Below, one piece after another: positions 19,795-55,999 of a DNA stretch of 55,999 bases; positions within the stretch are counted from its first letter, which is position 1, and each line of letters starts with the position of its first letter. The position numbers were made by a program, and so were the translations under genes. Source of the DNA: an uncultured Gemmatimonadaceae bacterium (GTDB lineage: Bacteria > Gemmatimonadota > Gemmatimonadetes > Gemmatimonadales > Gemmatimonadaceae); NCBI GenBank assembly GCA_963822945.1, contig CAWGJO010000031.1, positions 1-55,999 of the forward strand, given 5' to 3'. The notes under the pieces are model-generated. The model was given only the letters and a program-made list of their open reading frames with translations. It ran no database searches and was not told the origin of the DNA.

Positions 19795-19868
19795 CGCGCG
19801 GCCCCGGCCAGCGCCTTGAGCCGTTGTGATTTCTTACCGCGGCCGGCACCGGCGTTCACGCGGTCTTC

Positions 19869-20324
19869 ATGCCCGCGGGCGTACCTTGCGCCCACGAGAC
19901 GCCCATGTCGACCACCACCGGTATCGCCCACGTTGATGCGTATCTCTGCGCACTCGAGCGTCTCTCGCCCGCCGACTGGCTGGTGATCGGGCGGGTGGAA
20001 GGGGCACTGAGCGGCACGGCGCCGGCGCTGGCAACGGCCGAGCTCCTCGCCGGCGCCATCGTCGTGGATCGGCGGCTGGAGGTCGTCCGGTGGCAGGCGG
20101 TGGACGCGGTGGACACCTGCGCGGCGCTCGCCGCTCCCGCGCGCGCGCCGAAACCCGGCCCGCTCCTTCCGCTCGCCAGGCACGCCGCGCGCCGCGCCGC
20201 CGTGGCGATGCTCGTGCGGGACTTCCTGCCGGACCGCGATTTCCGCCGGTTGTGCGCGTCCGTGTTCAGTGTGCTGGGGCCGTGTCCTCCAGCGCCACCG
20301 CGGCACCCCGCTCCTCGGGGCTGA
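19869..20324 (+). CDS. hypothetical protein
   Basis: Compact 151-aa ORF with plausible composition; start may be 19905. Confidence 0.5.
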   Translation: MPAGVPCAHETPMSTTTGIAHVDAYLCALERLSPADWLVIGRVEGALSGTAPALATAELLAGAIVVDRRLEVVRWQAVDAVDTCAALAAPARAPKPGPLLPLARHAARRAAVAMLVRDFLPDRDFRRLCASVFSVLGPCPPAPPRHPAPRG

Positions 20325-22221: not shown

Positions 22222-22352
22222 TCGGGAGGAGCATTCCGGCTCCCACGGGCAGAGGTCCGGCCCGCGTCATCGCGGGCACAACCTCTGGAAGCTGAGACGC
22301 ACCCGAAGCTGCCGCACAAACAACGTATGAAGATTTCGGGCCCCGCCCCTGG

Positions 22353-22586
22353 CTACTTCAGCCAGCCCTCCACCTTCGTCCGGCTCGGAACGCCGCCGGC
22401 GTGCACCACCTCGCCGTCGATCACCACGCCGGGCGTGGACATGACTCCGTATCCCATGATGTCCCGGATCTCCTCCACCTTCTCCAGCTCGATCTCGGCG
22501 CCGGTTTCCCTGGCGACGGTCTCGAGCAGACGGATCGTGTTCCGGCAATTCGGGCAGCCCGTCCCGAGCACTTTCACGTTCTTCAT
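22353..22586 (-). CDS. small redox-active disulfide (thioredoxin-like) protein
   Basis: KVLGTGCPNC..YGVMSTPGVVIDG. Confidence 0.88.
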   Translation of the reverse strand: MKNVKVLGTGCPNCRNTIRLLETVARETGAEIELEKVEEIRDIMGYGVMSTPGVVIDGEVVHAGGVPSRTKVEGWLK

Positions 22587-22606
22587 GACGATCTCCTCGG
22601 CGCCGC

Positions 22607-23662
22607 TCACAACACGGCGTTGAATACGTAGCCCACCAGCAGGATGCCGGCGGCGACCACCGCGACGAACGTCGCGATCAGTCGCACCTTCAGCACCTTG
22701 CGCAGGATCACCATCTCGGGAAACGACAGCGCGATCACGCTCATCATGAAGGCGAGCACGGTGCCCAGCGCGGCCCCCTTGCCGAGCAGTGCCTGCACGA
22801 TGGGAATCACACCCGCGGCGTTCGTGTACATCGGAACGCCGGCGAGCACTGCGGCCGGCACGGCCCACCACGTGTTCCGCCCCATGATCGACGCCATGAA
22901 CGTCTCGGGCACGTAGCCATGGATGGCGGCGCCGATGGCGATGCCGGCCAGGATGTACGGCCACACGCGTCCGACGATCTCGCGCACGGCGGCGAATCCC
23001 GCCTCGATGCGCGCCGCCGCATCCAGGCGGTCGTGTCCGGCGGCCGCCTGCACGCGCGGCATGTCGCGCACCCAGTCCTCGAGCGACGACTCCATATGGA
23101 GCCGTCCGATCACCCATCCCGCCACGATGGCGATGGACAGGCCGAGCCCGAGATAGAGCAGCGCGATCTTCCATCCGAACAGGGCGAACAGGAGCGCGAG
23201 CGCCACCTCGTTGACCATCGGCGCGGAGATCAGGAAGGAGAAGGTGACGCCGAGCGGCACGCCAGCCTGCACGAAGCCGATGAAGAGCGGTACTGCGGAG
23301 CACGAACAGAACGGCGTCACGATGCCGAGTCCAGCCGCCATGACGTTGGCGACACCTTCGGCGCGCCCCGCGAGCAGGGCGCGCGTGCGTTCCGGGGTGA
23401 AGTACGAGTTCACCATCCCCATCGCGAAGACGACACCGGTGAGGAGAAGCAGGACCTTCGGTGTGTCGAAGAAGAAGAACTGGAGCGCGCCGCCCAGGTG
23501 GCTCGTGGGGTCCACCGGCAGGGCGGCCACCAGGGCCCCCGAGGTCGGCTCCAGCGCCAGGTAGAGCGCCAGCCAGGCGAACGCCGCGGCGCTGAGGAAG
23601 ACCCGAGGATGTGCACCGGGCCAATCGGCGCGCCGGAGCGTTACATCGTCGGGGTGCAGCAT
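22607..23662 (-). CDS. ArsP/DUF318 family permease
   Basis: TPFCSCSAVP, FLISAPMVNE and GVPMY. Confidence 0.88.
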   Translation of the reverse strand: MLHPDDVTLRRADWPGAHPRVFLSAAAFAWLALYLALEPTSGALVAALPVDPTSHLGGALQFFFFDTPKVLLLLTGVVFAMGMVNSYFTPERTRALLAGRAEGVANVMAAGLGIVTPFCSCSAVPLFIGFVQAGVPLGVTFSFLISAPMVNEVALALLFALFGWKIALLYLGLGLSIAIVAGWVIGRLHMESSLEDWVRDMPRVQAAAGHDRLDAAARIEAGFAAVREIVGRVWPYILAGIAIGAAIHGYVPETFMASIMGRNTWWAVPAAVLAGVPMYTNAAGVIPIVQALLGKGAALGTVLAFMMSVIALSFPEMVILRKVLKVRLIATFVAVVAAGILLVGYVFNAVL

Positions 23663-23991
23663 GCCTTCTCCGCCATCCACCGGGTGTAGCGCGCCTCGAC
23701 GTCGGCGACGATCAGGTCGTTGAGCAGCGTGCGGGCGGTGTCGAGCACCAGTTGCTGCTCGGGCCCGGGGCGATGGGTGATCCGGTATCGCATCCACAAG
23801 CCGTCGCGGCGCCCTTCGACGAGTCCGGTGGCCTGGAGGTAGCGCAGGTGTCGGGAGGCCTTGGACTGCGTCACGGCGAGAATCGCTTCCACGTCACAGA
23901 CGCAGAGTTCGTCGTGCCGGAAGAGCAGGGCGAGAATCTCGAGACGCGTGTCTTCGGAGAGCGCTTTGAAAGTCTGGCTGAGCAGTCGCAT
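23641..23991 (-). CDS. arsR: ArsR/SmtB metalloregulator
   Basis: FKALSEDTRLEIL, ELCVCD box, SRHLRYL and a C-terminal CC. Confidence 0.88.
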   Translation of the reverse strand: MRLLSQTFKALSEDTRLEILALLFRHDELCVCDVEAILAVTQSKASRHLRYLQATGLVEGRRDGLWMRYRITHRPGPEQQLVLDTARTLLNDLIVADVEARYTRWMAEKACCTPTM

Positions 23992-24016
23992 GGTCGGGTT
24001 CCTCTGTTGGGAGGAG

Positions 24017-24038
24017 TAAACCCGTTTACGCGGGTATA
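24017..24038. promoter_or_regulatory. probable ArsR operator
   Basis: Imperfect inverted repeat TAAACCCG-TTTACG-CGGGTATA just upstream of arsR. Confidence 0.55.
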
Positions 24039-24097
24039 CGGGATCGGCAGGTTCCCGACGTGTTGTCGGCGGTTGCCCGACGGCAACGGGTGGTTTG

Positions 24098-24235
24098 CGG
24101 ATGTGCTGGCCGGTAGCGAGGGGGATGGGAATGAGGTTCGGTTGGCAGACGTCCCAAGCTTGCTGCCCGTGGAACGTGAAGTTCGCGCGGGAAGTGCGGA
24201 AGCAGCGATTCGAGACGAGGCCTGTGATCGACCGT
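24098..24235 (+). repeat. att-like site 1 (core CA 24155) with a short queG 3' copy
   Basis: GGCAGACGTCC-CA-AGCTTGCTGCC, then QACCPWNVKFAREVRKQRFETRPVI; the left arm is diverged but colinear with the other copies. Confidence 0.85.
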
Positions 24236-24352
24236 CGGCCGCCGGACCGACATGTGGCGAAACAGTGCCGCGCCACCGCGCGCGTGGATCCAGCCTGAGG
24301 AACGCTCGGAAGGCCCCGGGCCGCGTGGACCGGGCCCGCGGCTACCCTCCGA

Positions 24353-26078: not shown

Positions 26079-26229
26079 GAAGAGGCTCCTTACCCCATCG
26101 CCCGACGCGAGCGATACACATGGCGTACCGGAAACGTAGCCGAAAGGTCCGAACGGCAAGGACCGATGTCGCAGCCGACACGAATCTCCGAGCGGGTCCG
26201 CAGCCCGCTGCCGCTGGCTCCATTCACTC

Positions 26230-26300
26230 GAGAGTGCTCGCCCTGTTTCTTAATGGAATCTCAATATCGGTTTGTCGGCACACCTCCCAAGCTTGCTGTC
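26230..26300 (+). repeat. att-like site 2 (core CA 26288)
   Basis: AATGGAATCTCAATATCGGTTTGTCGGCACACCTCC-CA-AGCTTGCTGTCC. Confidence 0.9.
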
Positions 26301-26515
26301 CCTGGAACGTGAAGTTTGCGCGGGAGGTGAAGGAGCCGAGGTTCGAGGCGCGGGCGGTGATCGGGGAGAAGGACGCGAGCACGCTGGCGACCGATATCCT
26401 CGCCATGAGCGAAGATGAATTCCGCGCTGCGTTCAAAGGCTCGGCGATGAAGCGGGCGAAGCTGGCGGGCCTCAGTCGGAATGCGGCGGCTTTGCTCTGT
26501 ATTCGCGAACCATAA
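26288..26515 (+). pseudogene. queG: displaced full-length queG 3' end
   Basis: QACCPWNVKFAREVKEPRFEARAVIG..ILAMSEDEFRAAFKGSAMKRAKLAGLSRNA aligns to queG 17705-17947. Confidence 0.92.
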
Positions 26516-33231: not shown

Positions 33232-33320
33232 CTTACGCATTGTCCGGATTAGAGTTCGACAGCCGCACGAAAGCGGTAACTCAATACAGTCTTGTCGGCA
33301 CACCTCCCAGGGGGTGCGCC
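33232..33320 (+). repeat. att-like site 3 (core CA 33308)
   Basis: AGCGGTAACTCAATACAGTCTTGTCGGCACACCTCC-CA-GGGGGTGCGCC. Confidence 0.9.
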
Positions 33321-33550
33321 CGTTCAACCGCAAGTTCACGCGAAAGCTCCGAGAGCCGAGATTCCAGCCACGCGCAGGAGTCGCCGCGAAGAGTGCGAAT
33401 ACGCTAGCAAGAGAGATCCTCGGGATGGCGGATGACGACTTCCGATCGGCGTTTCGCGACTCGCCAATGAAGCGGGCGAAGGTGGACGGGCTGAGGCGGA
33501 ACGCCGCCGCGGTACTGGGCATCAGTGGCGATAAGCCGAAACCGACCTGA
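33308..33550 (+). pseudogene. queG: displaced full-length queG 3' end (a different allele)
   Basis: QGVRPFNRKFTRKLREPRF..LAREILGMADDDFRSAFRDSPMKRAKVDGLRRNAAAVLG. Confidence 0.9.
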
Positions 33551-38035: not shown

Positions 38036-38340
38036 ATGCTGACCTCGACTCCTCGCCCTGCCGTACGGGGCGCCGTGACCGCCCAAGCCCGCCGTGAACA
38101 GAATCGCGCCTATGCCGAGGGCTTCGACGTCCTGATCGGCGTGGACTGCGGCCGCACCTTTCACCAGCTCGTCGCGCGCGGGCGAGACGGCCGCCGCAAG
38201 AAGGCCATCCGCGTGGACGTGAGCCGCGCCGGCTTCGACGCCGCAAATGCGCATCTCCAACAGACGTTCCCCGGGCTCCGGCCGAGCGAGATGCTCGTCG
38301 GCATGGAGTTCGCCGGCCACCACGGGTTCACGTTCGCCCA
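38036..38340 (+). pseudogene. 5' fragment of a second IS110 transposase
   Basis: LIGVDCGRTFH..VGMEFAGH (first D and E of DEDD); similarity appears to stop at CA 38339. Confidence 0.7.
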
Positions 38341-41607: not shown

Positions 41608-41705
41608 TCAAGTCACCTAGTCTGAAGAGGTTCGCCCGCCCGTCTCCAGCGGAATCGCAATACAGTTTTGTCGGCACACCTCCCAGGCGCGCTCTCGTTG
41701 GAACG
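41608..41705 (+). repeat. att-like site 5 (core CA 41684)
   Basis: GTTCGCCCGCCCGTCTCCAGCGGAATCGCAATACAGTTTTGTCGGCACACCTCC-CA; the right side reads QARSRWN, a decayed QxxCPWN. Confidence 0.9.
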
Positions 41706-41721
41706 GTAGGTCGGCCCCCGC

Positions 41722-44439
41722 TTAGTCGCTCCGCAGCACCGTCATCGGATCTGCCCGCGCCGCCCGCGTCGCGGGGAGGTAGCTGGCCAGGCCTGCGACG
41801 ACGAGGAGCACGATGGCGGCCTCGGCCAGCGACGCCGGATCGCGTGGCGATACCTGGTAGAGCAGCGAGGCGATGAAACGTCCCGCGCCGACGGCGCCGG
41901 CCACGCCGAGCGCCGCGCCGACGGCCGCGGTCTCGATTCCGCTCGCCACGACCATGCGCACGAGCGCCCCACGCTGCGCGCCGAGCGCGGCGCGGATCCC
42001 GAGTTCCCGGGTCCGCTGCACCACCGCGTACGTGAGTACCCCGTAGAGGCCTACCGCCGCGAGCACGAGCGCCAGCGTCCCGAACGCGCTGAACATATCG
42101 GCCCCCAGCGTCCACGAGTGGTACTGGGGATCGAGCTCGTCCGTGAGGGGCGTGACGGATGGATAGGGGATGTTCGGCCCGGCCGCCAGCATCGCGCGCC
42201 GAACGCGCTCCACCATCGCCGCCGGATCGCCCACCGTGCGCACTTCCATGGCCGAGATGCCGGGGAGGTACGGATTCGTGGCCTGCGTCTCGATGGGGAC
42301 GTACAGCTCCTGGATCGGCGTGGCCGTGATCTGCCACTGCGGCGAATCGGCCACGACGCCCACGATCGTCTCGCACGGCTCGGGCGTGCGATCGCTCTGC
42401 GGCCCCCGATCGGTGCGGATGCAGGCGCCCACCGGACTCGCGTCGCCCCAGTAGTATTTCGCCGCCTGCTCGCTGATGATCGCCACGTGCGCCGATGCGC
42501 GGTGCTCCGCGGCCGTAAACGAGCGCCCGGCGATGAACCGTCGGCCCGTCGCGGCGAAAAAGCCATCCGACACGGCCCGTCCCATCGGCGCGGCCAACGG
42601 CTGCTTCACCGCCGCGGCCGCGCCGCTCGTCGGAACAATCGAGGTTCCCCACCCACTGCGGAATGGCTCGCCGATCGAGATGCTCGCCGTCGCCACGCCG
42701 GGCACCGCGCGAACGCGCGCAAGCATCGCCTGGTACGCGGCCACTGCGTCCGCGTTGGACAGCCCCGCGCTCCGGAAATCGACCCTCGCGTACAGCAGAT
42801 GCCGCACGTCCATGCCCAGATCCTTGTCGCGCACGTTCCGGAGGCTTCGCACAAAGAGCCCTGAGCCCGCGAGCAACAGCACCGTGAACGCGACCTGCAC
42901 GGCCACCAGCGTGCGCTGAACGCGGAACCGGCCGGCCGGCACGTGGCCCCGCCCCATGAGCGTGGCATTGAGATCGGACCGCACGCCCACGGTCACCGGC
43001 GCCAACCCGCACAGCAGGCCCGTCGCCACCGCAACCGCCCCGGCGAATCCGAGCACGGGCCACGACATCGCCCTCGCGACGGCGACATCGGGCATGATCA
43101 CGTGCCGCACCACCGATGACGTCCACGCGGTCAACACCAGCGCCACGGCGCCGCCGCAGGCGGCGAGCATCAGACTCTCGGTGAGGAGCTGGCGCGCGAT
43201 CCGCCATCGGCCCGCGCCCAGCGACAGGCGCACCGCGATCTCGTGCGATCGGGACGCCGCGCGCGCCAGGAGGAGATTGGCGACGTTGGCGCAGGCGACG
43301 AGCAGCACCAGCACCGACACCGCGCCGAGCCAGAGCGCCACCTTCGTGTCGGCGGACATCGTGGGCGCACGCCCCACTGGAAGCGGCGCGAGGACGACGC
43401 GGGCGCCCTTCATGTATGGCTCCTTGGCGTGCTCGAACGCGAACGCCGCCGTGGCCTCGGCGGCCGCAACCTCCTTCGAGACCCCGGGGCGGAGTCGGGC
43501 GAACGTTGACAGCCAGTAGCTGTTCGCATGAGTGAGCGCGCTCGGCGCGAACATCGTGGTCGCGGCGGCGATCGGCAGCCACGCGTCCACCTGCTCCAGG
43601 TTGATCCCGGTGAACCCCTCGGGCGCCACGCCGATCACCGTGTAGGGCCGCCCCCCGATATCCACCGTCCGCCCCAGAACCGCGCGGTCGCCGTTGAACC
43701 GGTCCTTCCACAAGCCGTAGCCGAGCACCACCGTCTTCGTCCCCTCGGCGCGTTCCTCGTCGGGGCGGAACAAGCGGCCCAGCGCGGGGCGGGTGCCCAG
43801 GGCGCGGAAGAAGCTCGCCGTGACCAGCACCGCCTTGAGCGAGCGCGCATTGTCGCCGCGGCCGATCGAGGTCTCGTTGGCGAAGTAGGCCGCCACCGAC
43901 TCGAATGCGTGCGCGTTGTCGCGCAGGGCTTCATAGGTGCCGAATCCGGTGATCTGGTTCGCGGCGTATCCGCCGCCGTTGGGCTTGGGGTAGGCGTAGT
44001 ACAAGCGCACGATGCCGTCGGAGTTGGCGATCCCCGGCGGGGGTCGGAACATGAGTGTGTTCACAACGCCGAACATCGTCGCATTCACGCCAATCCCCAG
44101 CGCGAAGGTGAGCACCACGAACCCCGAGGCGACCCGATGATGCCAGAGGCTCCGGAGCCCGAATCGCACGTCCTGACGCAGGTCGTCGAGCCATTCGCGA
44201 AGTCGCATGCGGTTCTCGCGACGCTCGGCCGTAGCCTGGAGCGACCGACGCGCGGCCGGGGTGTCCCCGAACCGACGCCGTGCCTCGCGCAGCGCCTCCT
44301 TCGGCGTCAGCCCCTGGGCCTCGAGCTGCTTGGCGCGCAGCTCCAGATGCAGCGCGATCTCCTCGTCCACGTGCTCGCGCGCGACGTCGGGGCGCCGGAG
44401 CGCCAGCCGGAAGAGCCGCTTCACGCCCGGACGGATCAT
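41722..44439 (-). CDS. ADOP-type duplicated ABC permease
   Basis: VDEEIALHLE, ALGIGVNATMF, LLVACANVANLLLARA and ADPMTVLRSD. Confidence 0.92.
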   Translation of the reverse strand: MIRPGVKRLFRLALRRPDVAREHVDEEIALHLELRAKQLEAQGLTPKEALREARRRFGDTPAARRSLQATAERRENRMRLREWLDDLRQDVRFGLRSLWHHRVASGFVVLTFALGIGVNATMFGVVNTLMFRPPPGIANSDGIVRLYYAYPKPNGGGYAANQITGFGTYEALRDNAHAFESVAAYFANETSIGRGDNARSLKAVLVTASFFRALGTRPALGRLFRPDEERAEGTKTVVLGYGLWKDRFNGDRAVLGRTVDIGGRPYTVIGVAPEGFTGINLEQVDAWLPIAAATTMFAPSALTHANSYWLSTFARLRPGVSKEVAAAEATAAFAFEHAKEPYMKGARVVLAPLPVGRAPTMSADTKVALWLGAVSVLVLLVACANVANLLLARAASRSHEIAVRLSLGAGRWRIARQLLTESLMLAACGGAVALVLTAWTSSVVRHVIMPDVAVARAMSWPVLGFAGAVAVATGLLCGLAPVTVGVRSDLNATLMGRGHVPAGRFRVQRTLVAVQVAFTVLLLAGSGLFVRSLRNVRDKDLGMDVRHLLYARVDFRSAGLSNADAVAAYQAMLARVRAVPGVATASISIGEPFRSGWGTSIVPTSGAAAAVKQPLAAPMGRAVSDGFFAATGRRFIAGRSFTAAEHRASAHVAIISEQAAKYYWGDASPVGACIRTDRGPQSDRTPEPCETIVGVVADSPQWQITATPIQELYVPIETQATNPYLPGISAMEVRTVGDPAAMVERVRRAMLAAGPNIPYPSVTPLTDELDPQYHSWTLGADMFSAFGTLALVLAAVGLYGVLTYAVVQRTRELGIRAALGAQRGALVRMVVASGIETAAVGAALGVAGAVGAGRFIASLLYQVSPRDPASLAEAAIVLLVVAGLASYLPATRAARADPMTVLRSD

Positions 44440-44449
44440 CGTGGGCTCC

Positions 44450-44788
44450 CTACGATTGCGCGGTGAGGATATCGGTGACCAGATCGGCGTATCGTGTCCA
44501 GCGGGCGGTCTCGGCCTCGAGGAAGCGCCGCCCCTTGGCGATGACACGATAGTACCGCGCGCGGCGATTGTTGTCCGTCACGCCCCAGTCCGCGGTGACC
44601 AGCCCGCGCTCCTCCATACGGTAGAGCGCCTGGTAGAGCGCCGAATCGTCCACGCCGAGCCCGCCCGCGGATCGCGCTTCGAGCCAGCTGACGATCTCGA
44701 ACCCGTGCATCGGCGTCCAGCTCAGGGCCTTGAGCACGAGGACATCCAGCGTGCCCTTCACGACGGGGAGTGCGTCGGTGCCGGCCAT
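44450..44788 (-). CDS. PadR family regulator
   Basis: KGTLDVLVLKAL, ALYQALYRME and NNRRARYY. Confidence 0.92.
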   Translation of the reverse strand: MAGTDALPVVKGTLDVLVLKALSWTPMHGFEIVSWLEARSAGGLGVDDSALYQALYRMEERGLVTADWGVTDNNRRARYYRVIAKGRRFLEAETARWTRYADLVTDILTAQS

Positions 44789-44906
44789 CGTCGCTCCACT
44801 TAGAGTCTGGATAGAGCTACGCCGCCGGCGCCGGGGCGTCAAGGCCGGCGTTCCGCGAGGCTCCGCGCGTTGACCGGCCACCGGCATTGGCAGGCAAGGC
44901 GACTGC

Positions 44907-45000
44907 CTAATCCTTGCCCGCAAGAAGGGCTCGCCCACCTGTGGTCAATGGAATTTCAATACGATTATACCGGCACACCTCCCAGGAGGCGCGCCCGTAG
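44907..45000 (+). repeat. att-like site 6 (core CA 44983)
   Basis: AATGGAATTTCAATACGATTATACCGGCACACCTCC-CA-GGAGGCGCGCCCG. Confidence 0.9.
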
Positions 45001-45138
45001 GAGCGGTCGCCGGTGTACCGATCAGCGTGGACCGGGGCGTCAAGACCGATGGGCGCTCGTAAGACGGGCGTCGCCTGCCAGGGAGAGAGCCTTGCCCGGC
45101 TCTCACCAATTGATGCGCGGCTGCACCGGACATCGCCC

Positions 45139-47766
45139 CTAGCTGGACCGCAAGATCTCCACCGGATCGCTGCGCATCGCGCGCAATGCCGGCACGAGCG
45201 CGGCCGCCATCGCCACCGCCATCAGCGTCGCCTCGGCGATCAGGAGCGAGCCGGGGTCCGTATTCTTCACCCCGAACAGTCGCCAGGAAATACCGGCACT
45301 TGCCCAGAAGCTCAACAGGGCGCCGATCGCGGTGCCGCCGAGCGCCATCTCGAACGCGCTGGTGAGGACGACGCGCACAATGTTGCGCCGTGTGGCCCCG
45401 AGCGCCTGCCGCACGGCGAACTCGCGCATGCGCTGCCCCACACTGTAGGACAGCACGCTGAACAGTCCGGTCACCCCCAGAATCAGCGCCGCGAAGGTGA
45501 GCACCGAGAGGAACTGCTCGAAGATCCGGTTGGCGCGAATCTCCTGGTTCTGGGCAAGGGTCCACGGCAAAGCCGATACCACGGCCGTTCGAGGGAGCAC
45601 GCCGCTCAATGCTCGTTCGATGGCAGTCGGAAGCATGGCGCCGGCATGGGGCGCCATGCGGGCAACGATATTCGTCATCCCCACCGTCTGCGCCGACGCC
45701 ACGTAGATCATCGGATTATCCGAGGGATCGAACGAGTCGGTCGCATTCATCGCCACGTCCGGGGCGATGCCCACCACGCGCAGCCACGGCCGTGACGCCC
45801 GCGCCCAGCCGAGCTTGATCATGTGGCCGATGGCGTTCTCGTGCGGGAAGAGCGCGTTGGCGGCCGTTCGCGAAAGCACGACCGCACCTTCTCCGAGAAT
45901 GTCGGCGTCGGACAAGTCGCGCCCTGCTGCCAATCGAATGCCCATGGTCTCGAAAAACCGGGCCCCGACGGTCTCGTAGTACCTCACGCGCAGCGACGGA
46001 ACCGTCGGTCGGCGATCGGTGAGCACCTCGCCGGCATCGGGAATGCCGTAGCCCATCGTCGTCACCGCGACCACGCCGGGCACCTCGCGGACCGCCTGCA
46101 CCGCCCGCGCCAACAGCGCCCGCCGCGCCACGTCGGACGTGTCCGCCGCCCCGTCTGCCGGGGTGATGTACACGTGCACGAGCGAGTGTGCGGCGAAGGC
46201 GTATCGGTAATCCGCCAAGTTCCGCGTGGAGAGCGCCATCAGACTCGTGAGCATGAGCAGCACCATCGCGACCGCCAGCTCCGTGATCACGAGGAGGCGG
46301 AACTCGTTCCGGCTGCGGCCGGTGGTCGTGCCGGCGTTGTCCTTGAGCGGATCCGCCGGGTCCACCCGACTGGCTCGCCAGGCCGGGACGCCGCCCGCGA
46401 CGCCCATGCCGCCCAGCAGCGCCAAGCCCACCCCAGTGAAGACCCAGGGCGAGAATCCGAACACGTAGTCTCCCCAGGTTGCCAGGTCTTCCGGCACCAG
46501 GTGTGTGAGCACGCCAATCACCGCATTCGCGATCAGTAGCCCCAGGACCGCCCCACCAACGCCGATCACCAGGACCTCGGCGAGCACGTCGGCCGCGATC
46601 CCGGCGCGCGTGGCGCCGAGCGCAATGCGCAGCGCGTACTCGCGCCGCCGGGTCAAGCCGCGCGCCAACGCGAGCGCCGTCACGTTCGTGCAGCCGATGA
46701 GCAGCATCCCCAAGGCAAGCGCCAGCATCAGAATTCCCTGGACGTCTTGCCGCAGGTCCATTGCTTGCGGCGCCAGCGGAATCAGCAGGATGCCGTACGG
46801 CGTCGTGATCGTGAGCGGCGAGACATACTGCGCCTGGTAGCGTGCGGCGAGTGTGGCGACCTGCGCGTGCGCGGCCGCGGTGTCCACGTTCGCTCGGAGC
46901 TCCACGACGATGTCACCCTGCCGCAGCCGCTCCACCGCCCCCGGTGACGCATAGGGGATCACGACGGGAGCCGACAGTGGGCCCGCATGACCCGGCGGCA
47001 CCACGCCCACGATAGAGTACACGTGGCCGCCGACGCTCAGCGTCGCGCCGTCGATCGCGGAGCGGTCGGCGAACGACTCTGTCCACAGGGCGGACGACAC
47101 GAGTGCCGCGCGATCGGCGGCGATCTCCTGCGGGGTTGGATATCGGCCGAGCGTCAGCGGCACGCCGAGGGCGGGAAACAGGTTGGCGCTCACGTGTGCC
47201 ACCGTCCACTCCGCGGCGGCGCCCCCAATCGTCGTCAGTTCCTGGGCGTACGATTCCACGCCCACCGTCTGTACCGCCGGCAGTGTCGCGAGGCCCCGCA
47301 TCTGCTCGGCGATGCTCGGCCCGCTCGTCCGGTTGCCGAACCGGAGCTTCGCGACGTCCCACCGATCCGGATGTCGGAACAGGGCCTTCGGGTGAAGCGA
47401 GGAATCGATCAAGGCGAAGGTCGCCGTCGCGAGCCCGAGTGCCACGCCGAGCGAGAGTACCGACACCACGACGAAGCCGGGCGACCGTCGCAGCGTGCGC
47501 CACGCGCGCTTCACAGCCTGCGCGAACTGCTCAAACCACCGCACGCCGCGCGCGTCCCGAGACGCCTCCTTCATCTCCTCTACGCCGCCGAATGCCAGCC
47601 GTGCCTGGCGGCGGGCTTCGTCGGGTTCCGCCCCGTGAACGCCGAGCTTCTCCGCCTCACGATCGAGATGGAACTGGAGTTCCTCGGCGAGATCCCGCTC
47701 CAGATCCTCGCGGCGGAACAGTGCGCGGAGCCGGTAGCGCAGGTCGCTCAGTAGATCACGGAGCAT
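45139..47766 (-). CDS. ADOP-type duplicated ABC permease
   Basis: LAEELQFHLDRE, ARLAFGG, LIGCTNV, QRMREFAVRQALGA and DPVEILRSS. Confidence 0.9.
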   Translation of the reverse strand: MLRDLLSDLRYRLRALFRREDLERDLAEELQFHLDREAEKLGVHGAEPDEARRQARLAFGGVEEMKEASRDARGVRWFEQFAQAVKRAWRTLRRSPGFVVVSVLSLGVALGLATATFALIDSSLHPKALFRHPDRWDVAKLRFGNRTSGPSIAEQMRGLATLPAVQTVGVESYAQELTTIGGAAAEWTVAHVSANLFPALGVPLTLGRYPTPQEIAADRAALVSSALWTESFADRSAIDGATLSVGGHVYSIVGVVPPGHAGPLSAPVVIPYASPGAVERLRQGDIVVELRANVDTAAAHAQVATLAARYQAQYVSPLTITTPYGILLIPLAPQAMDLRQDVQGILMLALALGMLLIGCTNVTALALARGLTRRREYALRIALGATRAGIAADVLAEVLVIGVGGAVLGLLIANAVIGVLTHLVPEDLATWGDYVFGFSPWVFTGVGLALLGGMGVAGGVPAWRASRVDPADPLKDNAGTTTGRSRNEFRLLVITELAVAMVLLMLTSLMALSTRNLADYRYAFAAHSLVHVYITPADGAADTSDVARRALLARAVQAVREVPGVVAVTTMGYGIPDAGEVLTDRRPTVPSLRVRYYETVGARFFETMGIRLAAGRDLSDADILGEGAVVLSRTAANALFPHENAIGHMIKLGWARASRPWLRVVGIAPDVAMNATDSFDPSDNPMIYVASAQTVGMTNIVARMAPHAGAMLPTAIERALSGVLPRTAVVSALPWTLAQNQEIRANRIFEQFLSVLTFAALILGVTGLFSVLSYSVGQRMREFAVRQALGATRRNIVRVVLTSAFEMALGGTAIGALLSFWASAGISWRLFGVKNTDPGSLLIAEATLMAVAMAAALVPALRAMRSDPVEILRSS

Positions 47767-47779
47767 GGATCGGCCGGCT

Positions 47780-48112
47780 TCAGGTGGTCCGCAGGACGAG
47801 GGCGACTGCGGCCGCCAACCGTTCCCAGTCGCCGGTTTCGGCGGCCAACTGCGCGTGCCCTCGTCGGGTCAACTCATAGAACTTGGCCCGCCGGTTGTTG
47901 TCCGACGTGCCCCACGTCGCTTTCACCCAGCCACGGCGCTCGAGGCGGTGTAACGCAGGGTAGAGTGAGCCCTGCGGCACGTCGAGCACCTCGCGCGAGA
48001 TTTGGCGAATGCGCTCCGAGATCCCCCACCCGTGCTGGGGGGCGAGTGAGAGCGCCTTGAGGATCAGCAGGTCGAGCGTGCCCTGCGGGAGATCGAGACG
48101 GTCCGGCGGCAT
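47780..48112 (-). CDS. PadR family regulator
   Basis: LPQGTLDLLILKAL, GSLYPALHRLE and NNRRAKFY. Confidence 0.92.
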   Translation of the reverse strand: MPPDRLDLPQGTLDLLILKALSLAPQHGWGISERIRQISREVLDVPQGSLYPALHRLERRGWVKATWGTSDNNRRAKFYELTRRGHAQLAAETGDWERLAAAVALVLRTT

Positions 48113-48119
48113 GAGTTCC

Positions 48120-48168
48120 CCTGTGACTTCTACAGGACGATACGGCGCGTCCTGTAGAAGTGCAAGGG
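48120..48168. promoter_or_regulatory. padR operator with a perfect 14-bp inverted repeat
   Basis: ACTTCTACAGGACG-ATACGGCG-CGTCCTGTAGAAGT at 48126-48161. Confidence 0.7.
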
Positions 48169-48253
48169 AAATCGGGCGGTGCCATGCTGCCGGAGGCGAC
48201 AGAGACGGCAGCTTCCCGATTTCCGCCAAGCTGTCGTCCGTCGGGGACGACGC

Positions 48254-48354
48254 TTATCTCGTTGCCTTGGCACGAGTTCGCCCGCCCGTCTCCAATGGAA
48301 TCGCAATACAGTTTTGTCGGCACATCTCCCAGGAGGTGTGCCCTGAAGACTGCA
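48254..48354 (+). repeat. att-like site 7 (core CA 48330), an extended imperfect palindrome
   Basis: TACAGTTTTGTCGGCACATCTCC-CA-GGAGGTGTGCCCTGAAGACTGCA. Confidence 0.92.
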
Positions 48355-48483
48355 CTCTCCTGGGTCACGGAACTGAGCGGGGATGACGCGGAAGATTGGA
48401 GTCGGGGCTCGATCTCACTGCCTTCCGCGCATCCATCCGGTCCGACTTTCGGGGGGACCCGCCGGAGTGGGCTACCGTCAGCA

Positions 48484-48702
48484 CTACTGCTGGAGTTGCG
48501 CGGCAAACAGGTAGAACAACCGCACTCCTATAATCAGCACAGCGGCGCCGAGCACTCTCATGCCCCATGGAGGCAGTCGAGTCCATGGCGCCTGCGTGCG
48601 ACGCAGAGCCGCCCGCGGCCTGACCAGCATCAACACGCCGGAGGCCACCCACGCGAGACCGCAGATCAAGAAGAGCGCCGCTGTCGCCACGTTAGTCGCC
48701 AT
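48484..48702 (-). CDS. small 2-TM hypothetical protein
   Basis: 72 aa with two hydrophobic segments. Confidence 0.45.
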   Translation of the reverse strand: MATNVATAALFLICGLAWVASGVLMLVRPRAALRRTQAPWTRLPPWGMRVLGAAVLIIGVRLFYLFAAQLQQ

Positions 48703-48753
48703 GCGGATAGCCTGACGGCTGCTTCGCGCGATTACCGTCCCGACGCGCGGCCA

Positions 48754-49134
48754 TCAGAGTGGAGGCGGTTCCGCAGCCTGAAGTCGCGCCGCCCGCCGGC
48801 GATCTCGAAACACCGGGGTCAATGCGAGCCATACGAGTACGCCAAGGGATACGTGGCGTGCATTCGCCCCGATGTCCGCGTCCGCGAGGACCGCCTGGTG
48901 CATCGTCATCACTCCGCTCTCGTACTCCGTCGCCGCGCGGTCCCCGAATCGCACGACCCGGTCCGACGCTGGCGTCGACAGCGCAACCCGTACAGCTCCG
49001 TAGTACCCGGGTTGCGCAAAGAACAGCGTGACCAGCGACGCTCCTATTGCCAGGCCGCGCAGAATCTTCCGCCGGTAACGCCATTCGGCGACCAGCAACG
49101 CGACGAGGATCATGGCGATCAACGCTGTCGTCAT
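48754..49134 (-). CDS. hypothetical membrane protein
   Basis: 126 aa with three hydrophobic segments; AAGGAGG upstream. Confidence 0.5.
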   Translation of the reverse strand: MTTALIAMILVALLVAEWRYRRKILRGLAIGASLVTLFFAQPGYYGAVRVALSTPASDRVVRFGDRAATEYESGVMTMHQAVLADADIGANARHVSLGVLVWLALTPVFRDRRRAARLQAAEPPPL

Positions 49135-49410
49135 TCGACAAGCCTCCTTGGCGCTCGGATAGGATCAGAAGGAAGAGTCAGCGGAAACGTCACCGCGTGC
49201 GGGTCACGGGTATGGGCCCCCGCCGCTCTTTCCGCCCGCGCACGCGGTGACTGAGGCTGCGGAGGCCACGCGGACATTGCTCGCGAATCCGGCCACCGTC
49301 GTGCACCTGCCCGTCCGCTATGAAGCGGGGCTGACCGGCCGCACCGTCTGACGACATCTCAACGCGCTCGCCAGCTCGAAGATTGGGCGCAGCCTAACTT
49401 CGCTCCGCCG

Positions 49411-49641
49411 TCACCGCTTCTTCGGCACGACCAATGGAGGAGCCGACTGGTCTTTGGGCATGCAGACTTTGCGCCAATCTTCACCGGGCTTGAGCGGCTC
49501 GCAGAGCTCGGCGTGCAACGCGCTGTCGCTGAAGACAGACCGCGGCGCTTCCGCCAATGGCGCCGCCGCGGAAGCGGGGCGCTGGCTTTGACAGGCAAGG
49601 GCGCCAGCAAGGCAGACGGCCCCGATCAAGAGAGAGCGCAT
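49411..49641 (-). CDS. small hypothetical lipoprotein
   Basis: MRSLLIGAVCLAGALAC lipobox; two further Cys. Confidence 0.5.
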   Translation of the reverse strand: MRSLLIGAVCLAGALACQSQRPASAAAPLAEAPRSVFSDSALHAELCEPLKPGEDWRKVCMPKDQSAPPLVVPKKR

Positions 49642-49880
49642 GATTCAGAACGTACGTCCCTTCGCCCGCGTAGGTCAACAGGCGGTGGCGCAGGGCGGGC
49701 TGAGTGCAGCGGCACTCCCAACTCCGCCAGCAGCGCCTCTGTGGAGTCAACGCCCAGCGCACGCTTCGGCTGCCGATCGGTGGCTAAACGGGACTATGGC
49801 CAATCGCTATTCCCGGAAATCCAAGACACCCCCATTCCCAGACGCCGCCACCGTATACCAACTGGTGCCGGGCGGCGGCC

Positions 49881-49970
49881 CTAACTCTTTGCGGGATTGA
49901 GCGTTCGGCCGCCGGTTCCCAGCGGAATCTCGATACAGTTATACCGGCACACCTCCCAGGACGTGTGGCG
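49881..49970 (+). repeat. att-like site 8 (core CA 49957)
   Basis: AGCGGAATCTCGATACAGTTATACCGGCACACCTCC-CA-GGACGTGTGGC. Confidence 0.9.
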
Positions 49971-50274
49971 ACATATTCAGAGTCGTCCCGACAACCGGCC
50001 GACAGATCCCCTTACGTCGTCACCAACTTCCGATACGTCACCAGGCGCGGCTGATCAGCACCCGGCTCCTTTCGCGTCTTCAAATCTTACATATACGAAC
50101 TGTACTCCGCTCCAACACGGCTCTGGACCGTCCAGCAGCGGGCACGCCGGGTCGCATCCGGCCGGTGGCTACCATGCTCCCGCACACTCCTCCCGCAATG
50201 TCCGCATGGGATCCGTACTTGTGGCCCGGCGTGCCGGTGATACTCGGTCCACTTGACCGGGCCCTTGGGCTTGG

Positions 50275-50635
50275 GGTGAGTAGGCCGGGGCATTGCAGCC
50301 CCAGCCGCTCGCAGAACCGGACGTGAGCCTGTCGACTCATCCGGCTCCCATCATCGAGCTGCAGGGTGGAATCCCTTTTCTCAATGCGCGAACGCCGTCG
50401 GCATGCGATCCGCAACTCGGCCAAGCGCCCGCGCTCCGCGAATGATCCCGCGCGCCAGCCGCCTGCACTTTCGCTGCATCCAGCGCACACATAGTCGTTC
50501 ACGTGTCGCCACAACGGTTGTATCGCGGACGGGTAGAACCGACCGTCGTCGTTCGACTAGCCCCGCAGCACCGGGTCGAACATGCTCGAGAGACCGCTCG
50601 GTGCGATTCACCCGACGCAAACAGTCGTCATTTAA
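50275..50635 (-). mobile_element. 5'-truncated group II intron remnant (decayed maturase domain X + DV + DVI)
   Basis: Broken frame MFDPVLRG*SNDDGRFYPSAIQPLWRHVNDY / VRWMQRK..RVADRMPTAFAH; DV GAGCCGGATGAGTCGACAGGCTCACGTCCGGTTC; ends CCTACTCACC. Confidence 0.85.
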
Positions 50636-50651
50636 TGCGGGGCGCCTCAGC

Positions 50652-51131
50652 TCAAAGATACGGCAGAAAGGAGAGGATGCCGATCCCAATACATGCTAAC
50701 CCGAGTAGGAATACTACCATCGAGCTCCCGGCCGGGCCGGCCTCGAGGACGCTAACGCCTGGGTCTCTTGGAGAAATATGCACCACCACTTCCTGATCGA
50801 GCGGATAGCGCGACGTCTGACTCCAAGCCCACGATAGGCCTCCCAGGCCGGCGCCCCCCATCCGGAACCTTGATCCAGTATACTCTTTGCCGTTGACCGA
50901 ATACCGGTATTGCACAACCGGAATGAATTCTGTCTTCTTGGTCGGAAGGATCCCCATGCTTGATACTTGGATCGGCCTCCTGCGCGCGCCTACGATGCGG
51001 CCTCTAACCGTCGGCCATTGTGCGCACCGAATTCCGCGGACGACGTTCACAACGCCTAGTATCGCCAACGCGACTCCGCCGAGCACCATCGTTCCCCCAG
51101 AAATGACGTCCGTCGCAGCGTGTGAAGTCAT
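50652..51131 (-). CDS. DUF3592 family membrane protein
   Basis: TM helix, WPTVRGRI, PVVQYRYSVNGKEY, VVVHISPRDP, TM helix. Confidence 0.75.
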   Translation of the reverse strand: MTSHAATDVISGGTMVLGGVALAILGVVNVVRGIRCAQWPTVRGRIVGARRRPIQVSSMGILPTKKTEFIPVVQYRYSVNGKEYTGSRFRMGGAGLGGLSWAWSQTSRYPLDQEVVVHISPRDPGVSVLEAGPAGSSMVVFLLGLACIGIGILSFLPYL

Positions 51132-51594
51132 ACGGCGGCCTGCCTCCTCGGATGGCGACGCGGCGCCTGAAGGCGTTCCGTTTCACCAGGTCGCGTGGCG
51201 GCAATCGATTGCCTCTGCGGTCGCTTCACCGCAAGGCTGGCCTTGGTCGCGCGATGCGCCGCAGACTCCTGATGGGAGACACCAAATCCGGTCCCTCCGG
51301 CGGCGGTACTTCGTCCCGACCGCACAGTCACTCGCCAATCTCCATAGTCTATGCTTCGAGGATGAGGGCCGCCGGTGTTCGTTGGTCTAACGCTATAGTA
51401 TCGATCCCCGCGCAGATCTATCAAGTACCTGAACTCGTGCTGCTGTGAGCCCCGTTTCGTGAATCAGATGCGACTAAGCTGTTCTGGGCGTGGGTCCCCG
51501 CGGATCGGTCCAGCCGGGTGCACGCTTTGACGGGAACTGAGCTGACCCCGGCGTATCCCCACTGCGGAAGCAAGGCCCCCGAACTGCTCCGGCG

Positions 51595-51692
51595 CTAGCT
51601 CCCTCTCTTGACGAGGGTTCGTCCACCCGTCCCCAACGGAATCGCAGTACAGTTTTGTCGGCACACCTCCCAGGAGGTGTGCCGGTAGACTG
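51595..51692 (+). repeat. att-like site 9 (core CA 51671), perfect 12-bp arms
   Basis: CGGCACACCTCC-CA-GGAGGTGTGCCG. Confidence 0.92.
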
Positions 51693-52230: not shown

Positions 52231-55200
52231 CACATGGCCCCGTTCTTCCAGGCGATAAAGAGGGCGGGGTAGAGCGAACCCCTGGTTGACCTGAGAGGTG
52301 GGGATTCGAGGAGGCGGATGCGTTTTCGACAGTCCCCAGCCGTGGAGCGGGCCTGCACGGAGACTCTTGAGGATCAGGAGGTCGAGCGTGCCTGCAGAGG
52401 TGCTGCGCGATCGGACATCGGAGGAATACAAGGACGGTCGGAGCCCTTGAGCTTCGACAACAATATGCCGGTTGTTGTCGACGGTCAAGGTATATCTGTC
52501 GCTCAGCGCTCCGGCGGGGTCGGGATCCTCGAGGCCGCTCGACTGAGGTTGCCGAGTATGACCTGAGTGCCCCCCGAGAGCCCGGGCGGCCGCGCGCACT
52601 TGATTCCCAAGCCGACGCAGGGAATTCGAGCTGCCGCTCCGCGAGGACACCGGCGGCCGCCGTACCGGCTTCACAGTCTACTGGCACACCTCCTGGGAGG
52701 TGTGCCGACGAAAACTGTACTGCGATTCCGTTGGGGACGGGTGGACGAACCCTCGTCAAGAGAGGGAGCTAGCGCCGGAGCAGTTCGGGGGCCTTGCTTC
52801 CGCAGTGGGGATACGCCGAGTAGCTACAGTACCCATCAAAGCGTGCACCCGGCTGCAACGATCCGCGGGGGACCCACGCCCAGAACAGCTTAGTCGCATC
52901 TGATTCACGAAACGGGGCTCACAGCAGCACGAGTTCAGGTACTTGATAGATCTGCGCGGGGATCGATACTATAGCGTTAGACCAACGAACACCGGCGGCC
53001 TGGTCGTCGAAGCATAGACTATGGAGATTGGCGAGTGACTGTGGCGATCGGGACGAAGTACCGCCGCCGGAGGGACCGGATTTGGTGTCTCCCATCAGGA
53101 GTCTGCGGCGCATCGCGCAACCAAGGCCAGCCTTGCGGTGAAGCAACCGCAGAGGCAATCGATTGCCGCCACGCGACCTGGTGAAACGGAACGCCAGGCG
53201 CCGCGTCGCCATCCGAGGAGGCGGGCCGCCATACTTCACACGCTGCGACGGACGGCATTTCTTACGGGAACGATGGTGCTCGGCGGAGTCGCGTTGGCGA
53301 TACTAGTCGTTGTGAACGTCGTCCGCGGAATTCGGTGGGCACAATGGCCGACGGTTAGAGGCCGCATCGTAGGCGCGCGCAGGAGGCCGATCCAAGTATC
53401 GAGCATCGGGATCCTTCCCCGAGAAAGACAGAATTCATTCCGGTTGTGCAATACCGGTATTCGGTCAACGGCAGAAGAGTATACTGGATCAAGGTTCCCG
53501 GATGAGGGCGCCGGCCTGGGAGGCCTATCGTGGGCTTGGGAGCTGCGAACTTGGCGCTACTCCGCTCGATCAGGAAGTGGTGGTGCATATTTTTCCAAGA
53601 GACCCAGGCGTTAGCGTCCTCGAGGCCGGCCCGGCCGGCGAGATGGTATGGTAGTATTCCTACTCGGGTTAGCATGTATTCGGATCGGCATCCTCTGCCT
53701 TTTCTGCCGTATCTTTGAGCTGAGGCGCCCCGCATTAAATGACGACTGTTTTCGTCGGGTGAATCGCACCGAGTCGGCTCGAGAGCATGCTCAACCCGGT
53801 GCTGCGGGGTAGTCAACGACGACGGTCGGTTCTACCCGTCCGCGATACAACCGTTGTGGCGACACGTGAACGACTATGGTGCGCTGGATGAGTGAAAGTG
53901 CAGGCGGCCGGCGCGCGGGAACATCGCGGAGCGCGGGCGCTTAGCCGAGTTGCGGATCGCATGCCGACGGCGTTCGCGCATTGAGAAAAGGGATTACGCC
54001 TGCAGCTCGATGATGGGAGCCGGATCAGTCGACAGGCTCACGTCCGGTTCTGCGAGCGGCTGGGGCTGCAATGCCCCGGCCTACTCACCCCAAGCCCAAG
54101 GGCCCGGTCGAGTGGACCGAGTATCACCGGCACGCCGGGCCACAAGTACGGATCCCATGCGGACATTGCGGGAGGAGTGTGCGGGAGCATGGTAGCCACC
54201 GGCCGGCTGCGACCCAGGGTGCCTGCTGGACGGTCCAGAGCCGTGTTGGAGCGGAGTACAGTTCGTCTATGTGATTTTTTGAAGACGCGAAAGGAGCAGG
54301 GTGCTGATCAGCCGCGCCTGGTGACGTATCGGGAAGTTGGTGACGACGTAAGGGGATCTGTCGGCCGGTGTCGGGACGATCTGAATATGTCGCCCACGTC
54401 CTGGGAGGTGTGCCGGTATAACTGTATCGAGATTCCGCTGGGAACCGGCGGCCGAACGCTCAATCCCGCAAAGAGTTAGGGCCGCCGCCCGGCACCAGTT
54501 GGTATACGGTGGCGGCGTCTGGGAATGGGGATGGCTTGGATTTCCGGGAATAGCGATTGGCCATAGTCCCGTTTAGCCACCGATCGGCAGCCGAAGCGTG
54601 CGCTGGGCGTTGACTCCACAGAGGCGCTGCTGGCGGAGTTGGGAGTGCCGCTGCACTCAGCCCGGCCTGCGCCACCGCCTGTTGACCTACGCGGGCGAAG
54701 GAACGTACGTTCTGAATCATGCGCTCTCTCTTGATCGGGGCCGTCTGCCTTGCTGGCGCCCTTGCCTGTCAAAGCCAACGCCCCGCTCCCGCGGCGGCGC
54801 CATTGGCGGAAGTGCCGCGGTCTGTCTTCGGACGCGCGTTGCACGCCGAGTCTGCGAGCCGCTCAAGCCCGGTAAAGATTGGCGCAAAGTCTGCATGCCC
54901 AAAGACCAGTCGGCTCCTCCATTGGTCGTGCCGAAGAAGCGGTGACGGCGGAGCGAAGGTAGGCTGCGCCCCATCTTCGAGCTGGCGAGCGCGTTGAGAT
55001 GTCGTCAGACGGTGCGGCCGGTCAGCCCCGCTTCATAGCGGACGGGCAGGTGCACGACGGTGGCCGGATTCGCGAGCAATGTCCGCGTGGCCTCCGCAGC
55101 CTCAGTCACCGCGTGCGCGGGCGGAAAGAGCGGCGGGGGCCCACACCCGTGACCCGCACGCGGTGACGTTTCCGCTGACTCTTCCTTCTGATCCTATCCG

Positions 55201-55999
55201 AGCGCCAAGGAGGCTTGTCGAATGACGCAGCGTTGATCGCCATGATCCTCGTCGCGTTGCTGGTCGCCGAATGGCGTTACCGGCGGAAGATTCTGCGCGG
55301 CCTGGCAATAGGAGCGTCGCTGGTCACGCTGTTCTTTGCGCAACCCCGGTACTACGGAGCTGTACGGGTTGCGCTGTCGACGCCAGCGTCGGACCGGGTC
55401 GTGCGATTGCGGGTCCGCGCGGCGACGGAGTACGAGAGCGGAGTGATCACGATGCACCAGGCGCCCGCGGACGCGGACATCGGGGCAACCCGCCACGTAT
55501 CGGCGTACTCGTATGGCTCGCATTGACCCCGGTGTTTCGAGATCGCCGGCGGGCGGCGCGCTTCAGGCTGCGGAACCGCCTCCACTCTGATGGCCCGCGT
55601 CGGGACGGTAATCGCGCGAAGCAGCCGTCAGGCTATCCGCATGGCGAACGGGCGACAGCGGCGCTCTTCTTGATCTGCGGTCTCGCGTGGGTGGCCTCCG
55701 GCGTGTTGATGCTGAGGCCGCGGGCGGCTCTGCGTAGCACGCAGGCGCCTTGGACTCGACTGCCTCCATGGGGCATGAGGGCTCGGCGCCGCTGTGCTGA
55801 TTATAGGAGTGCGGTGTCTACCTGTTTGCCGCGCAACTCCAGCAGTAGTGCTGACGGTAGCCACTCCGGCGGGTCCCCCCGAAAGTCGGACCGGATGGAT
55901 GCGCGGAAGGCAGTGAGATCGAGCCCCACTCCAATCTCGCGTCATCCCCGCTCAGTTCCGTGACCCAGGAGAGTCCAGTCTTCAGGGCACACCTCCTGG
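52231..55999 (-). repeat. inverted (fold-back) copy of about 48329-52154, probably a sequencing or amplification artefact
   Basis: All features recur mirrored (cores at 52694, 54402, 55997) with many extra indels; there is 8-bp microhomology at the junction. Confidence 0.9.

What the first reader, a model, noticed from the sequence alone, without database searches (positions are those of the whole stretch)
41608..51672. Left arm of the repeat encodes a conserved 25-aa C-terminus on the minus strand
Seen: reading leftward from the core gives WEVCRQNCTAIPLGTGGRTLVKRGS* (site 9), WEVCRYNCIEIPLGTGGRTLNPAKS* (8), WEMCRQNCIAIPLETGGRTRAKATR* (7), WEVCRYNRIEIPLTTGGRALLAGKD* (6), WEVCRQNCIAIPLETGGRTSSD*VT* (5), WEVCRQDCIELPLSCGCRTLIRTMRK (3), WEVCRQTDIEIPLRNRASTLE* (2) and WDVCQPNLIPIPLATG (1). 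Codon 26 is a stop in five of eight copies, using TAG (51595, 49881, 44907), TAA (48254) and TGA (41608), and is AAG in a sixth. Neighbouring bases are divergent and many differences fall on third positions. Inference: each site joins two gene tails back to back, queG rightward and an unknown gene leftward. The most plausible owner is the cognate integrase, with attP inside its 3' end, so integration would swap its C-terminus.
Basis: partly seen in the sequence, partly recalled or inferred. Interest (0 to 1): 0.85.

Follow-up and report, generated by a model that had tools for sequence, protein, structure and literature searches.

The report
Swappable integrase tail in queG islands
The repeated 25-codon stretch is the detachable last piece of a DNA-inserting enzyme whose gene runs across its own insertion site, so the enzyme ends differently when its element is free and when it sits in the host's queG gene; here only stacked, enzyme-less remnants of those elements are left.

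Summary
The eight arms are P arms of attachment junctions in a tandem array integrated in queG. The owner is a clade of large serine recombinases (LSR) in related Gemmatimonadota. Its gene lies next to queG on the opposite strand and runs about 140 codons antisense through the replacement queG tail to the CA crossover (43 of 44 loci open). When integrated it ends in a short host-derived tail. In three natural loci it reads straight into the arm, and six database proteins join LSR C-terminal sequence to the arm. Codon 26 is a stop in 41 of 80 arms chosen without the peptide. A half-site motif shows the 5-bp attP/attB shift typical of LSRs. Caveats: no such LSR was found in this genome or its genus; no full-length LSR ending in the arm was seen; the stop overlaps an IHF-like box; the tail's function is untested. 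Mx8 is the precedent for the principle. The serine enzyme, antisense overlap and coding constraint in integrase-less units are new.

The parts
16991..17947 (+). Intact queG (epoxyqueuosine reductase), the target gene and first position of the array. The crossover dinucleotide reads GA (17705-17706) instead of CA.
   Evidence: Pfam PF08331 and PF13484; core sequence
17948..24078 (.). Cargo of unit 1: response regulator, adjacent ORF without Pfam hit, amino-acid/K+ permease, ArsP-type permease, ArsR
   Evidence: shared at 96-98% with G012 up to the junction
24079..24156 (-). P arm (site 1), degenerate, no stop at codon 26; CA at 24155-24156
24155..24298 (+). Displaced, truncated queG tail
26212..26289 (-). 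P arm (site 2), stop at codon 22
26288..26515 (+). Displaced queG tail, 75 codons, host (B') type
33232..33309 (-). P arm (site 3), codon 26 AAG
33308..33550 (+). Displaced queG tail, 80 codons, with a P'-type heptamer at positions 17-23
38036..38340 (+). IS110 5' fragment cut at a CA (38339-38340) and joined to a paralogue of the right side of site 9: an arm-less pseudo-junction
41608..41685 (-). P arm (site 5); stops at codons 23 and 26 (TGA)
41686..44906 (-). Integrase-less unit: PadR regulator and MacB/FtsX permease
44907..44984 (-). P arm (site 6); TAG at codon 26
44985..48253 (-). Integrase-less unit: PadR regulator and MacB/FtsX permease
48254..48331 (-). P arm (site 7); TAA at codon 26
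48332..49880 (.). Integrase-less 1.6-kb unit of small ORFs (two scanned, no Pfam hit); 98.7% identical in G006, where both neighbours differ
49881..49958 (-). P arm (site 8); TAG at codon 26
49959..51594 (.). Integrase-less 1.7-kb unit (DUF3592 protein and small ORFs)
51595..51672 (-). P arm (site 9); TAG at codon 26; the junction has an 11-bp dyad around CA (51671-51672)
52231..55999 (.). Inverted, indel-rich copy of 48329-52154; probable long-read fold-back artefact, not part of the system
   Evidence: 94.8% identity with 115 gap positions; almost no cover by contigs of four runs

Best explanation
The arm is the P arm of attP of a queG-targeting large serine integrase element, and also the last 25 codons of that integrase. 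Shown: the element integrates at the CA in queG's C-D-x-C-Q-E-V-C-P codons and supplies a new queG 3' tail; its LSR gene is transcribed towards queG, overlaps that tail antisense and crosses the crossover. Shown as sequence: at attL the protein ends at the core or in a host-derived run, and at P-type junctions it ends in the arm. Inferred: excision therefore gives the enzyme a conserved 25-residue end on a long flexible linker, and integration removes it. This most likely acts as a state-dependent control of stability or activity, alongside a candidate directionality factor encoded just upstream. Inferred: the window is an old accretion array. Elements entered next to queG, lost the integrase and were pushed outward by later arrivals, leaving attR-like junctions. 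Their arms stay under coding constraint, probably because an arm co-excised with a visiting LSR element becomes that enzyme's C-terminus.
For: LSR next to queG on the arm strand in G305; 67 close homologues. No stop between the LSR body and the core in 43 of 44 loci with a contiguous hit, of 63 examined, some being the same record found twice. Antisense frame open through the whole tail in 29 of 30 LSR-flagged versus 32 of 66 other queG genes. LSR reads into the arm in L185, L235 (stop at codon 26) and L128; 6 of 121 arm-bearing database proteins reach back to LSR profile positions below 570. An arm, frameshifted in one case, precedes the next displaced tail in 7 of 7 LSR elements where that tail was in view; four more had no far end in the fetched DNA. 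Stop at codon 26 in 41 of 80 arms selected by queG tail alone. Outside the ~25-bp footprint, genus arms show 158 synonymous and 96 non-synonymous single changes, against 31% synonymous expected. Heptamer at positions 17-23 in P (62 of 97) and P' (24 of 35) but at 12-18 in B, the 5-bp shift described in PMC3783163. Breakpoints between genomes fall at CA.
Against: No full-length LSR with catalytic domain ending in the whole arm was found among 67 homologues, 39 further cluster members or two 'longer' searches; P0024 has only a 7-residue arm-like end. The three read-through loci are partial or decayed genes. No LSR body in 17 genus genomes, so the cognate enzyme of the window's arm subtype is unobserved. 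The stop overlaps a CAAnnnnTTR box in 44 of 97 arms. About half of ordinary queG tails are open in this frame anyway. AlphaFold models linker and arm as unstructured. dN/dS rises to 0.64 (uncorrected pN/pS) in the unbiased set, which includes dead and frameshifted arms. Counts are not phylogenetically independent.
Confidence: 0.82

Rival explanations
1. The arm is the LSR's attP-form end only incidentally. It is conserved as DNA (recombinase half-site plus an IHF/HU-type bending site over the stop), the read-through exploits a frame that is often open, and the peptide has no function; an RDF sets direction.
For: ZD-like heptamer in the arm; IHF-like box at the stop in 44 of 97 arms and at no other offset (consensus recalled, not from a call); an HU/IHF-family gene in the genome; frame open in 32 of 66 ordinary tails; a conserved ~53-residue ORF just upstream of the LSR in 18 of 32 loci; disordered models.
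Against: Among arms with TTR at the box, 37 of 43 complete a stop codon, which the box does not require; 26 of 65 arms with a broken CAA still stop at codon 26. Synonymous excess lies outside the footprint. Intact LSR genes almost never stop before the core.
Confidence: 0.3
3. The array is an integron-like platform served by a tyrosine recombinase (IntI), with the arm end acting as an attC/attI core.
For: Short units with variable cargo; GTTAG-like sequence at the stop; IntI genes elsewhere in 3 of 5 genus genomes.
Against: No IntI above cut-off in G000 or G012, which have the largest arrays; no attC-like hairpin recurring at the arms; breakpoints are at a 2-bp CA, 75 nt from the stop.
Confidence: 0.03

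Closest known systems
Myxococcus phages Mx8/Mx9 integrase (attP inside int)
   Same: attP lies in the integrase coding sequence; integration gives the gene a new 3' end and changes enzyme behaviour (PMC6070905, passages; primary papers not read).
   Different: Mx8 Int is a tyrosine recombinase with tRNA targets (recalled). Here a serine integrase targets a protein gene and overlaps the replacement tail antisense for about 140 codons; the elements are defence/fitness islands, not phages.
Large serine integrases (A118/LI, phiC31, Bxb1, SPbeta SprA)
   Same: Catalytic, recombinase, zinc-ribbon and coiled-coil architecture; 2-bp crossover in a dyad; 5-bp shifted motif between attP and attB (PMC3783163 passages).
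   Different: attP lies inside the gene; there is a ~145-residue disordered linker encoded by antisense queG; the target gene is rebuilt, whereas PMC5704250 (passages) describes site-specific serine IMEs as disrupting their targets.
CIMEs and tandem accretion (ICESt1 family)
   Same: Decayed elements without integrase that keep att sites and stack at one target by repeated integration (PMC5704250 passages).
   Different: Serine rather than tyrosine chemistry; the leftover att arm is protein-coding and stays under coding constraint; about 18 junctions in this genome.
Integration-dependent immunity of mycobacteriophage BPs
   Same: attP inside a gene so that integration swaps a C-terminus that controls stability (PMC4557955, abstract).
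   Different: There the split gene is the repressor and the tag is ssrA-like. The arm's last residues are variable and no degron was shown here.

Membership tests
Large serine recombinase element | Serine catalytic (resolvase) domain followed by recombinase domain | tested here: met
   P0001: PF00239 at 31-186 and PF07508 at 239-323; catalytic R-K-S column invariant. Met in relatives; no such gene found in the window's genome.
Large serine recombinase element | Zinc ribbon and coiled coil | tested here: met
   C347, C350, H371, C391 invariant; long helices 416-518; best fold matches SPbeta, phiC31 and Bxb1 integrases.
Large serine recombinase element | 2-bp crossover within a dyad | tested here: met
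   CA in 27 of 27 LSR loci; breakpoints at CA between genomes; dyad profile.
Large serine recombinase element | ZD motif 5 bp nearer the centre in attB than in attP | tested here: met
   Positions 17-23 in P and P', 12-18 in B; no matching motif in B'.
Large serine recombinase element | Catalyses attP x attB; RDF-dependent excision | not testable with these tools
   Needs an assay. Candidate RDF-sized ORF upstream; no Pfam or meaningful PDB match.
Mx8-type split integrase | attP inside the integrase ORF, with different C-termini in the two states | tested here: met
   attL ends versus arm ends in L185, L235, L128; shown on partial genes only.
Mx8-type split integrase | Tyrosine recombinase | tested here: not met
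   The owner is a serine recombinase; not filed as a member.
Mx8-type split integrase | The swap changes enzyme activity | not testable with these tools
   No functional data.
CIME / accretion array | Units lack integrase and transfer genes but keep att junctions | tested here: met
   Pfam of 40 window ORFs shows no recombinase apart from IS110; no LSR body on the array contigs.
CIME / accretion array | Mobilised in cis by an adjacent active element | tested here: inconclusive
   Same unit with different neighbours in G000 and G006; LSR elements followed by LSR-less units in G305 and G167; movement not observed.
Integron | IntI beside the array and attC hairpins | tested here: not met

The most novel reading that the evidence does not exclude
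The integrase senses its own recombination state through a 25-residue module on a ~145-residue tether encoded by the antisense strand of the host gene it repairs. Integrase-less cassettes keep a working copy of that module because, when co-excised, their arm becomes the visiting integrase's C-terminus. The array would then be a cassette library that donates part of the enzyme that moves it.
Probability: 0.35. Interest if true: 0.82.

Novelty: new variant of a known kind. Interest (0 to 1): 0.64.

Why it matters
It identifies an LSR clade and a hotspot (queG) that I did not find described in the searches run. In it, one ~420-bp stretch encodes the host enzyme's tail, the integrase's linker on the other strand and the recombinase binding motif. 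If the tail swap regulates the enzyme, it is a natural directionality or stability switch in a class of enzymes used for genome engineering, and it can be tested directly with predicted attP/attB pairs. It also explains arrays of 100 kb or more of defence and transporter cassettes in soil Gemmatimonadota.

Tried and rejected
Six-frame search of the own genome found no long ORF owning the arm. Viral contigs gave nothing with the arm or the LSR alignment. The three resolvase-domain genes in two genus genomes are unrelated LSRs without queG overlap. Two 'longer' protein searches found no full-length LSR ending in the arm (weak by the tool's own note). My first idea that attL equals attB, so that no RDF is needed, was rejected because P' carries the attP-type heptamer in 24 of 35 loci and B' in 0 of 31. 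An early idea that the arm is a ferredoxin tail was dropped once the LSR read-through was found. The attC scan was negative. AlphaFold gave no structure for linker or arm; with four arm-bearing rows this says little. A complex prediction of arm with LSR never ran because the queue was full, so binding is untested. Contigs of four soil runs covered the region only in pieces and showed no circular joint. Papers PMC9504112, PMC13107129 and 10.64898/2026.06.07.730663 (passages) were not relevant. Rows dropped before counts: one search kept 97 of 122 arms (score at least 20, starting TGG, under 90% alike, fold-back copies removed); one search kept 80 of 81 displaced tails; one search flagged L235 as LSR-adjacent and L191 as not, both wrongly, which barely changes the result.
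Full report
1. Observation. Each junction has the form arm - CA - right arm, with a dyad around CA. The window is contig C31 of G000. Its last 3.8 kb is an indel-rich inverted copy of 48329-52154 and is probably a read artefact.

2. Context. Intact queG lies at 16991-17947. Displaced queG tails follow the sites at 24156, 26289 and 33309; the five distal sites keep only the first 10-25 nt. Cargo between sites is PadR plus MacB/FtsX permeases, transporters, regulators and small unknown ORFs (40 ORFs scanned). More junctions lie on C19 and C37, and DNA that follows queG in array-free G014 is found on C37 just beyond them, so the array exceeds 100 kb. Arms occur in 12 of 16 other genus genomes and 17 of 400 phylum genomes, with the same layout wherever a displaced tail is recognisable.

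3. The owner. A recombinase search put an LSR beside queG in G305 on the arm's strand. It has resolvase and recombinase domains and a serine-integrase fold. Its last 146 residues are predicted disordered and are the antisense reading of the queG tail. Sixty-seven homologues were returned. By a regular expression, 26 end at the core, 21 end six residues later, 10 run further into antisense queG, 9 were not parsed to the core and 1 has a 7-residue arm-like end; some 'ends at core' may be contig ends. Where a real stop is visible, the integrated ends are 0, 6, 27-28 or other lengths in 15, 8, 8 and 4 of 35 loci, so they are host-determined and not conserved. Of 63 loci examined, 44 gave a contiguous hit from the LSR body to the core and 43 of these have no stop. 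Three continue in frame into the arm: L185, with an attP-type right arm, L235, stopping at codon 26, and L128. In L235 a 1.2-kb integrase-less unit has entered between queG and an LSR remnant. In a word-free search, 121 of the best 150 hits carry the arm, 48 end exactly 25 residues after the W, and 6 reach back to LSR profile positions below 570. LSR-bearing elements carry restriction-modification, Mrr, OLD/UvrD-type and similar cargo, and no relaxase or phage structural family appeared among the 44 cargo ORFs scanned.

4. Site anatomy. A heptamer (consensus AACCGTA) is at positions 17-23 from the crossover in P arms (62 of 97 within one mismatch) and in P' arms at attL (24 of 35). It is at 12-18 in the B arm, and absent at 17-23 from queG without LSR (0 of 31). 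This is the 5-bp shift of the zinc-domain motif described in PMC3783163 (passages). Only 11 of 97 displaced right arms are P'-type, so most junctions are attR-like. Inference: a new element can integrate only after the resident first tail has become B'-like again, which also explains why intact LSR genes ending in the arm are rare. The unit 48330-49957 is 98.7% identical in G006 with different neighbours on both sides, and the change falls at CA. One contig of run X3 starts to match at 48302 after 170 unmatched bases.

5. Is the arm constrained as protein? Stop at codon 26 in 50 of 97 profile-selected arms and 41 of 80 arms selected by queG tail only, against 2.2% per codon nearby. dN/dS is 0.37 in this frame and 0.62 in the + frame sharing third positions; 26 of 97 to 62 of 97 arms have stops in the other frames, including 47 in that + frame. 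Beyond the recombinase footprint, the 57 genus arms show 158 synonymous and 96 non-synonymous single changes, with 31% synonymous expected. Against: the stop overlaps a CAAnnnnTTR box in 44 of 97 arms (resembles the IHF consensus as I recall it), and the unbiased set gives a weaker ratio, 0.64. The box alone does not require a stop, yet 37 of 43 TTR arms complete one. The antisense frame is open through the tail in 29 of 30 LSR-flagged and 32 of 66 other queG genes: the overlap used a pre-existing open frame but is now maintained. The control groups include loci of genomes marked unpublished (G022, G432, and also G125, G626); the contrasts do not depend on them. None of these counts corrects for relatedness.

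6. Mechanism. Shown: target, crossover, overlap, two alternative C-termini as sequence, tandem layout, shuffled units. Inferred: excision joins the LSR to the arm and integration removes it. The conserved end on a flexible tether most likely tunes stability or activity (about even odds that it has a function). A conserved ~53-residue ORF abutting the LSR start in 18 of 32 loci (strict pattern, duplicates included) is a candidate directionality factor by size and position only; SPbeta's is 58 residues (PMC11722253 passages). The window holds only integrase-less units: no LSR body or small ORF in 17 genus genomes (G000 is 88% complete). The queG crossover here reads GA, as GA or GG in 5 of 14 genus genomes examined, which would block further exchange at the first site.

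7. Known systems. attP inside int with a C-terminal swap is known from Mx8/Mx9 (PMC6070905 passages) and, for a repressor, from phage BPs (PMC4557955 abstract). Accretion of decayed elements is the CIME model (PMC5704250 passages). Searches for queG with serine recombinase and attachment site (0 papers), epoxyqueuosine reductase with integrase and integration site (1 irrelevant) and Gemmatimonad with recombinase and queG found no description. PMC10083194 has no queG mention in its main text; its supplements were not read and could list this target, and most subscription papers are not held. Earlier notes of this scan report LSRs with att sites in their own 3' ends in other phyla (unchecked), so that part may be common.

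8. Verdict. Real feature, interpretation largely right, new variant of a known kind. Interest 0.64.

Noticed in passing
window 52231-55999: Inverted copy of 48329-52154 at 94.8% with many indels at the contig end; probable fold-back artefact that duplicates sites 7-9.
   Followed up: yes
window 38036-38340: IS110 gene cut at a CA and fused to a junction right arm; intact relatives in G006 also have CA there. Suggests LSR action at a pseudo-attB.
   Followed up: partly
window 17705-17706: Crossover CA changed to GA (Q to E in queG); GA or GG in 5 of 14 genus genomes, all five carrying arrays. Possible host escape or shared ancestry.
   Followed up: partly
L114:1353-1511 and homologues: Conserved ~53-residue helical ORF ending at the LSR start; no Pfam or PDB match; candidate recombination directionality factor.
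   Followed up: partly
arm nt 68-77, e.g. window 49880-49889: CAAnnnnTTR box over the stop codon; a similar string also follows a tRNA gene on contig C44 of the own genome.
   Followed up: partly
G000 contigs C8, C19, C37: C8 is an 89% copy of window 24145-33306 with ends at junction cores; C19 1-6548 overlaps the end of C37 at 99%. Strain variants or unresolved assembly of the array.
   Followed up: no
window 38466-38820 and 51800-52154: Paralogous PadR units share a short inverted repeat upstream of PadR (around 38559-38590 and 51893-51924), a likely operator.
   Followed up: no
L027:13320-13530 (G012): A displaced queG tail is fused in frame to a sequence that looks like an IS91-type transposase C-terminus (motif recalled).
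   Followed up: no
L193:4312-6613 (G005): An unrelated LSR appears to run in frame into an IS91-like transposase sequence (motif recalled).
   Followed up: no
window 34104-35234: Intact IS110-family transposase inside unit 4.
   Followed up: no
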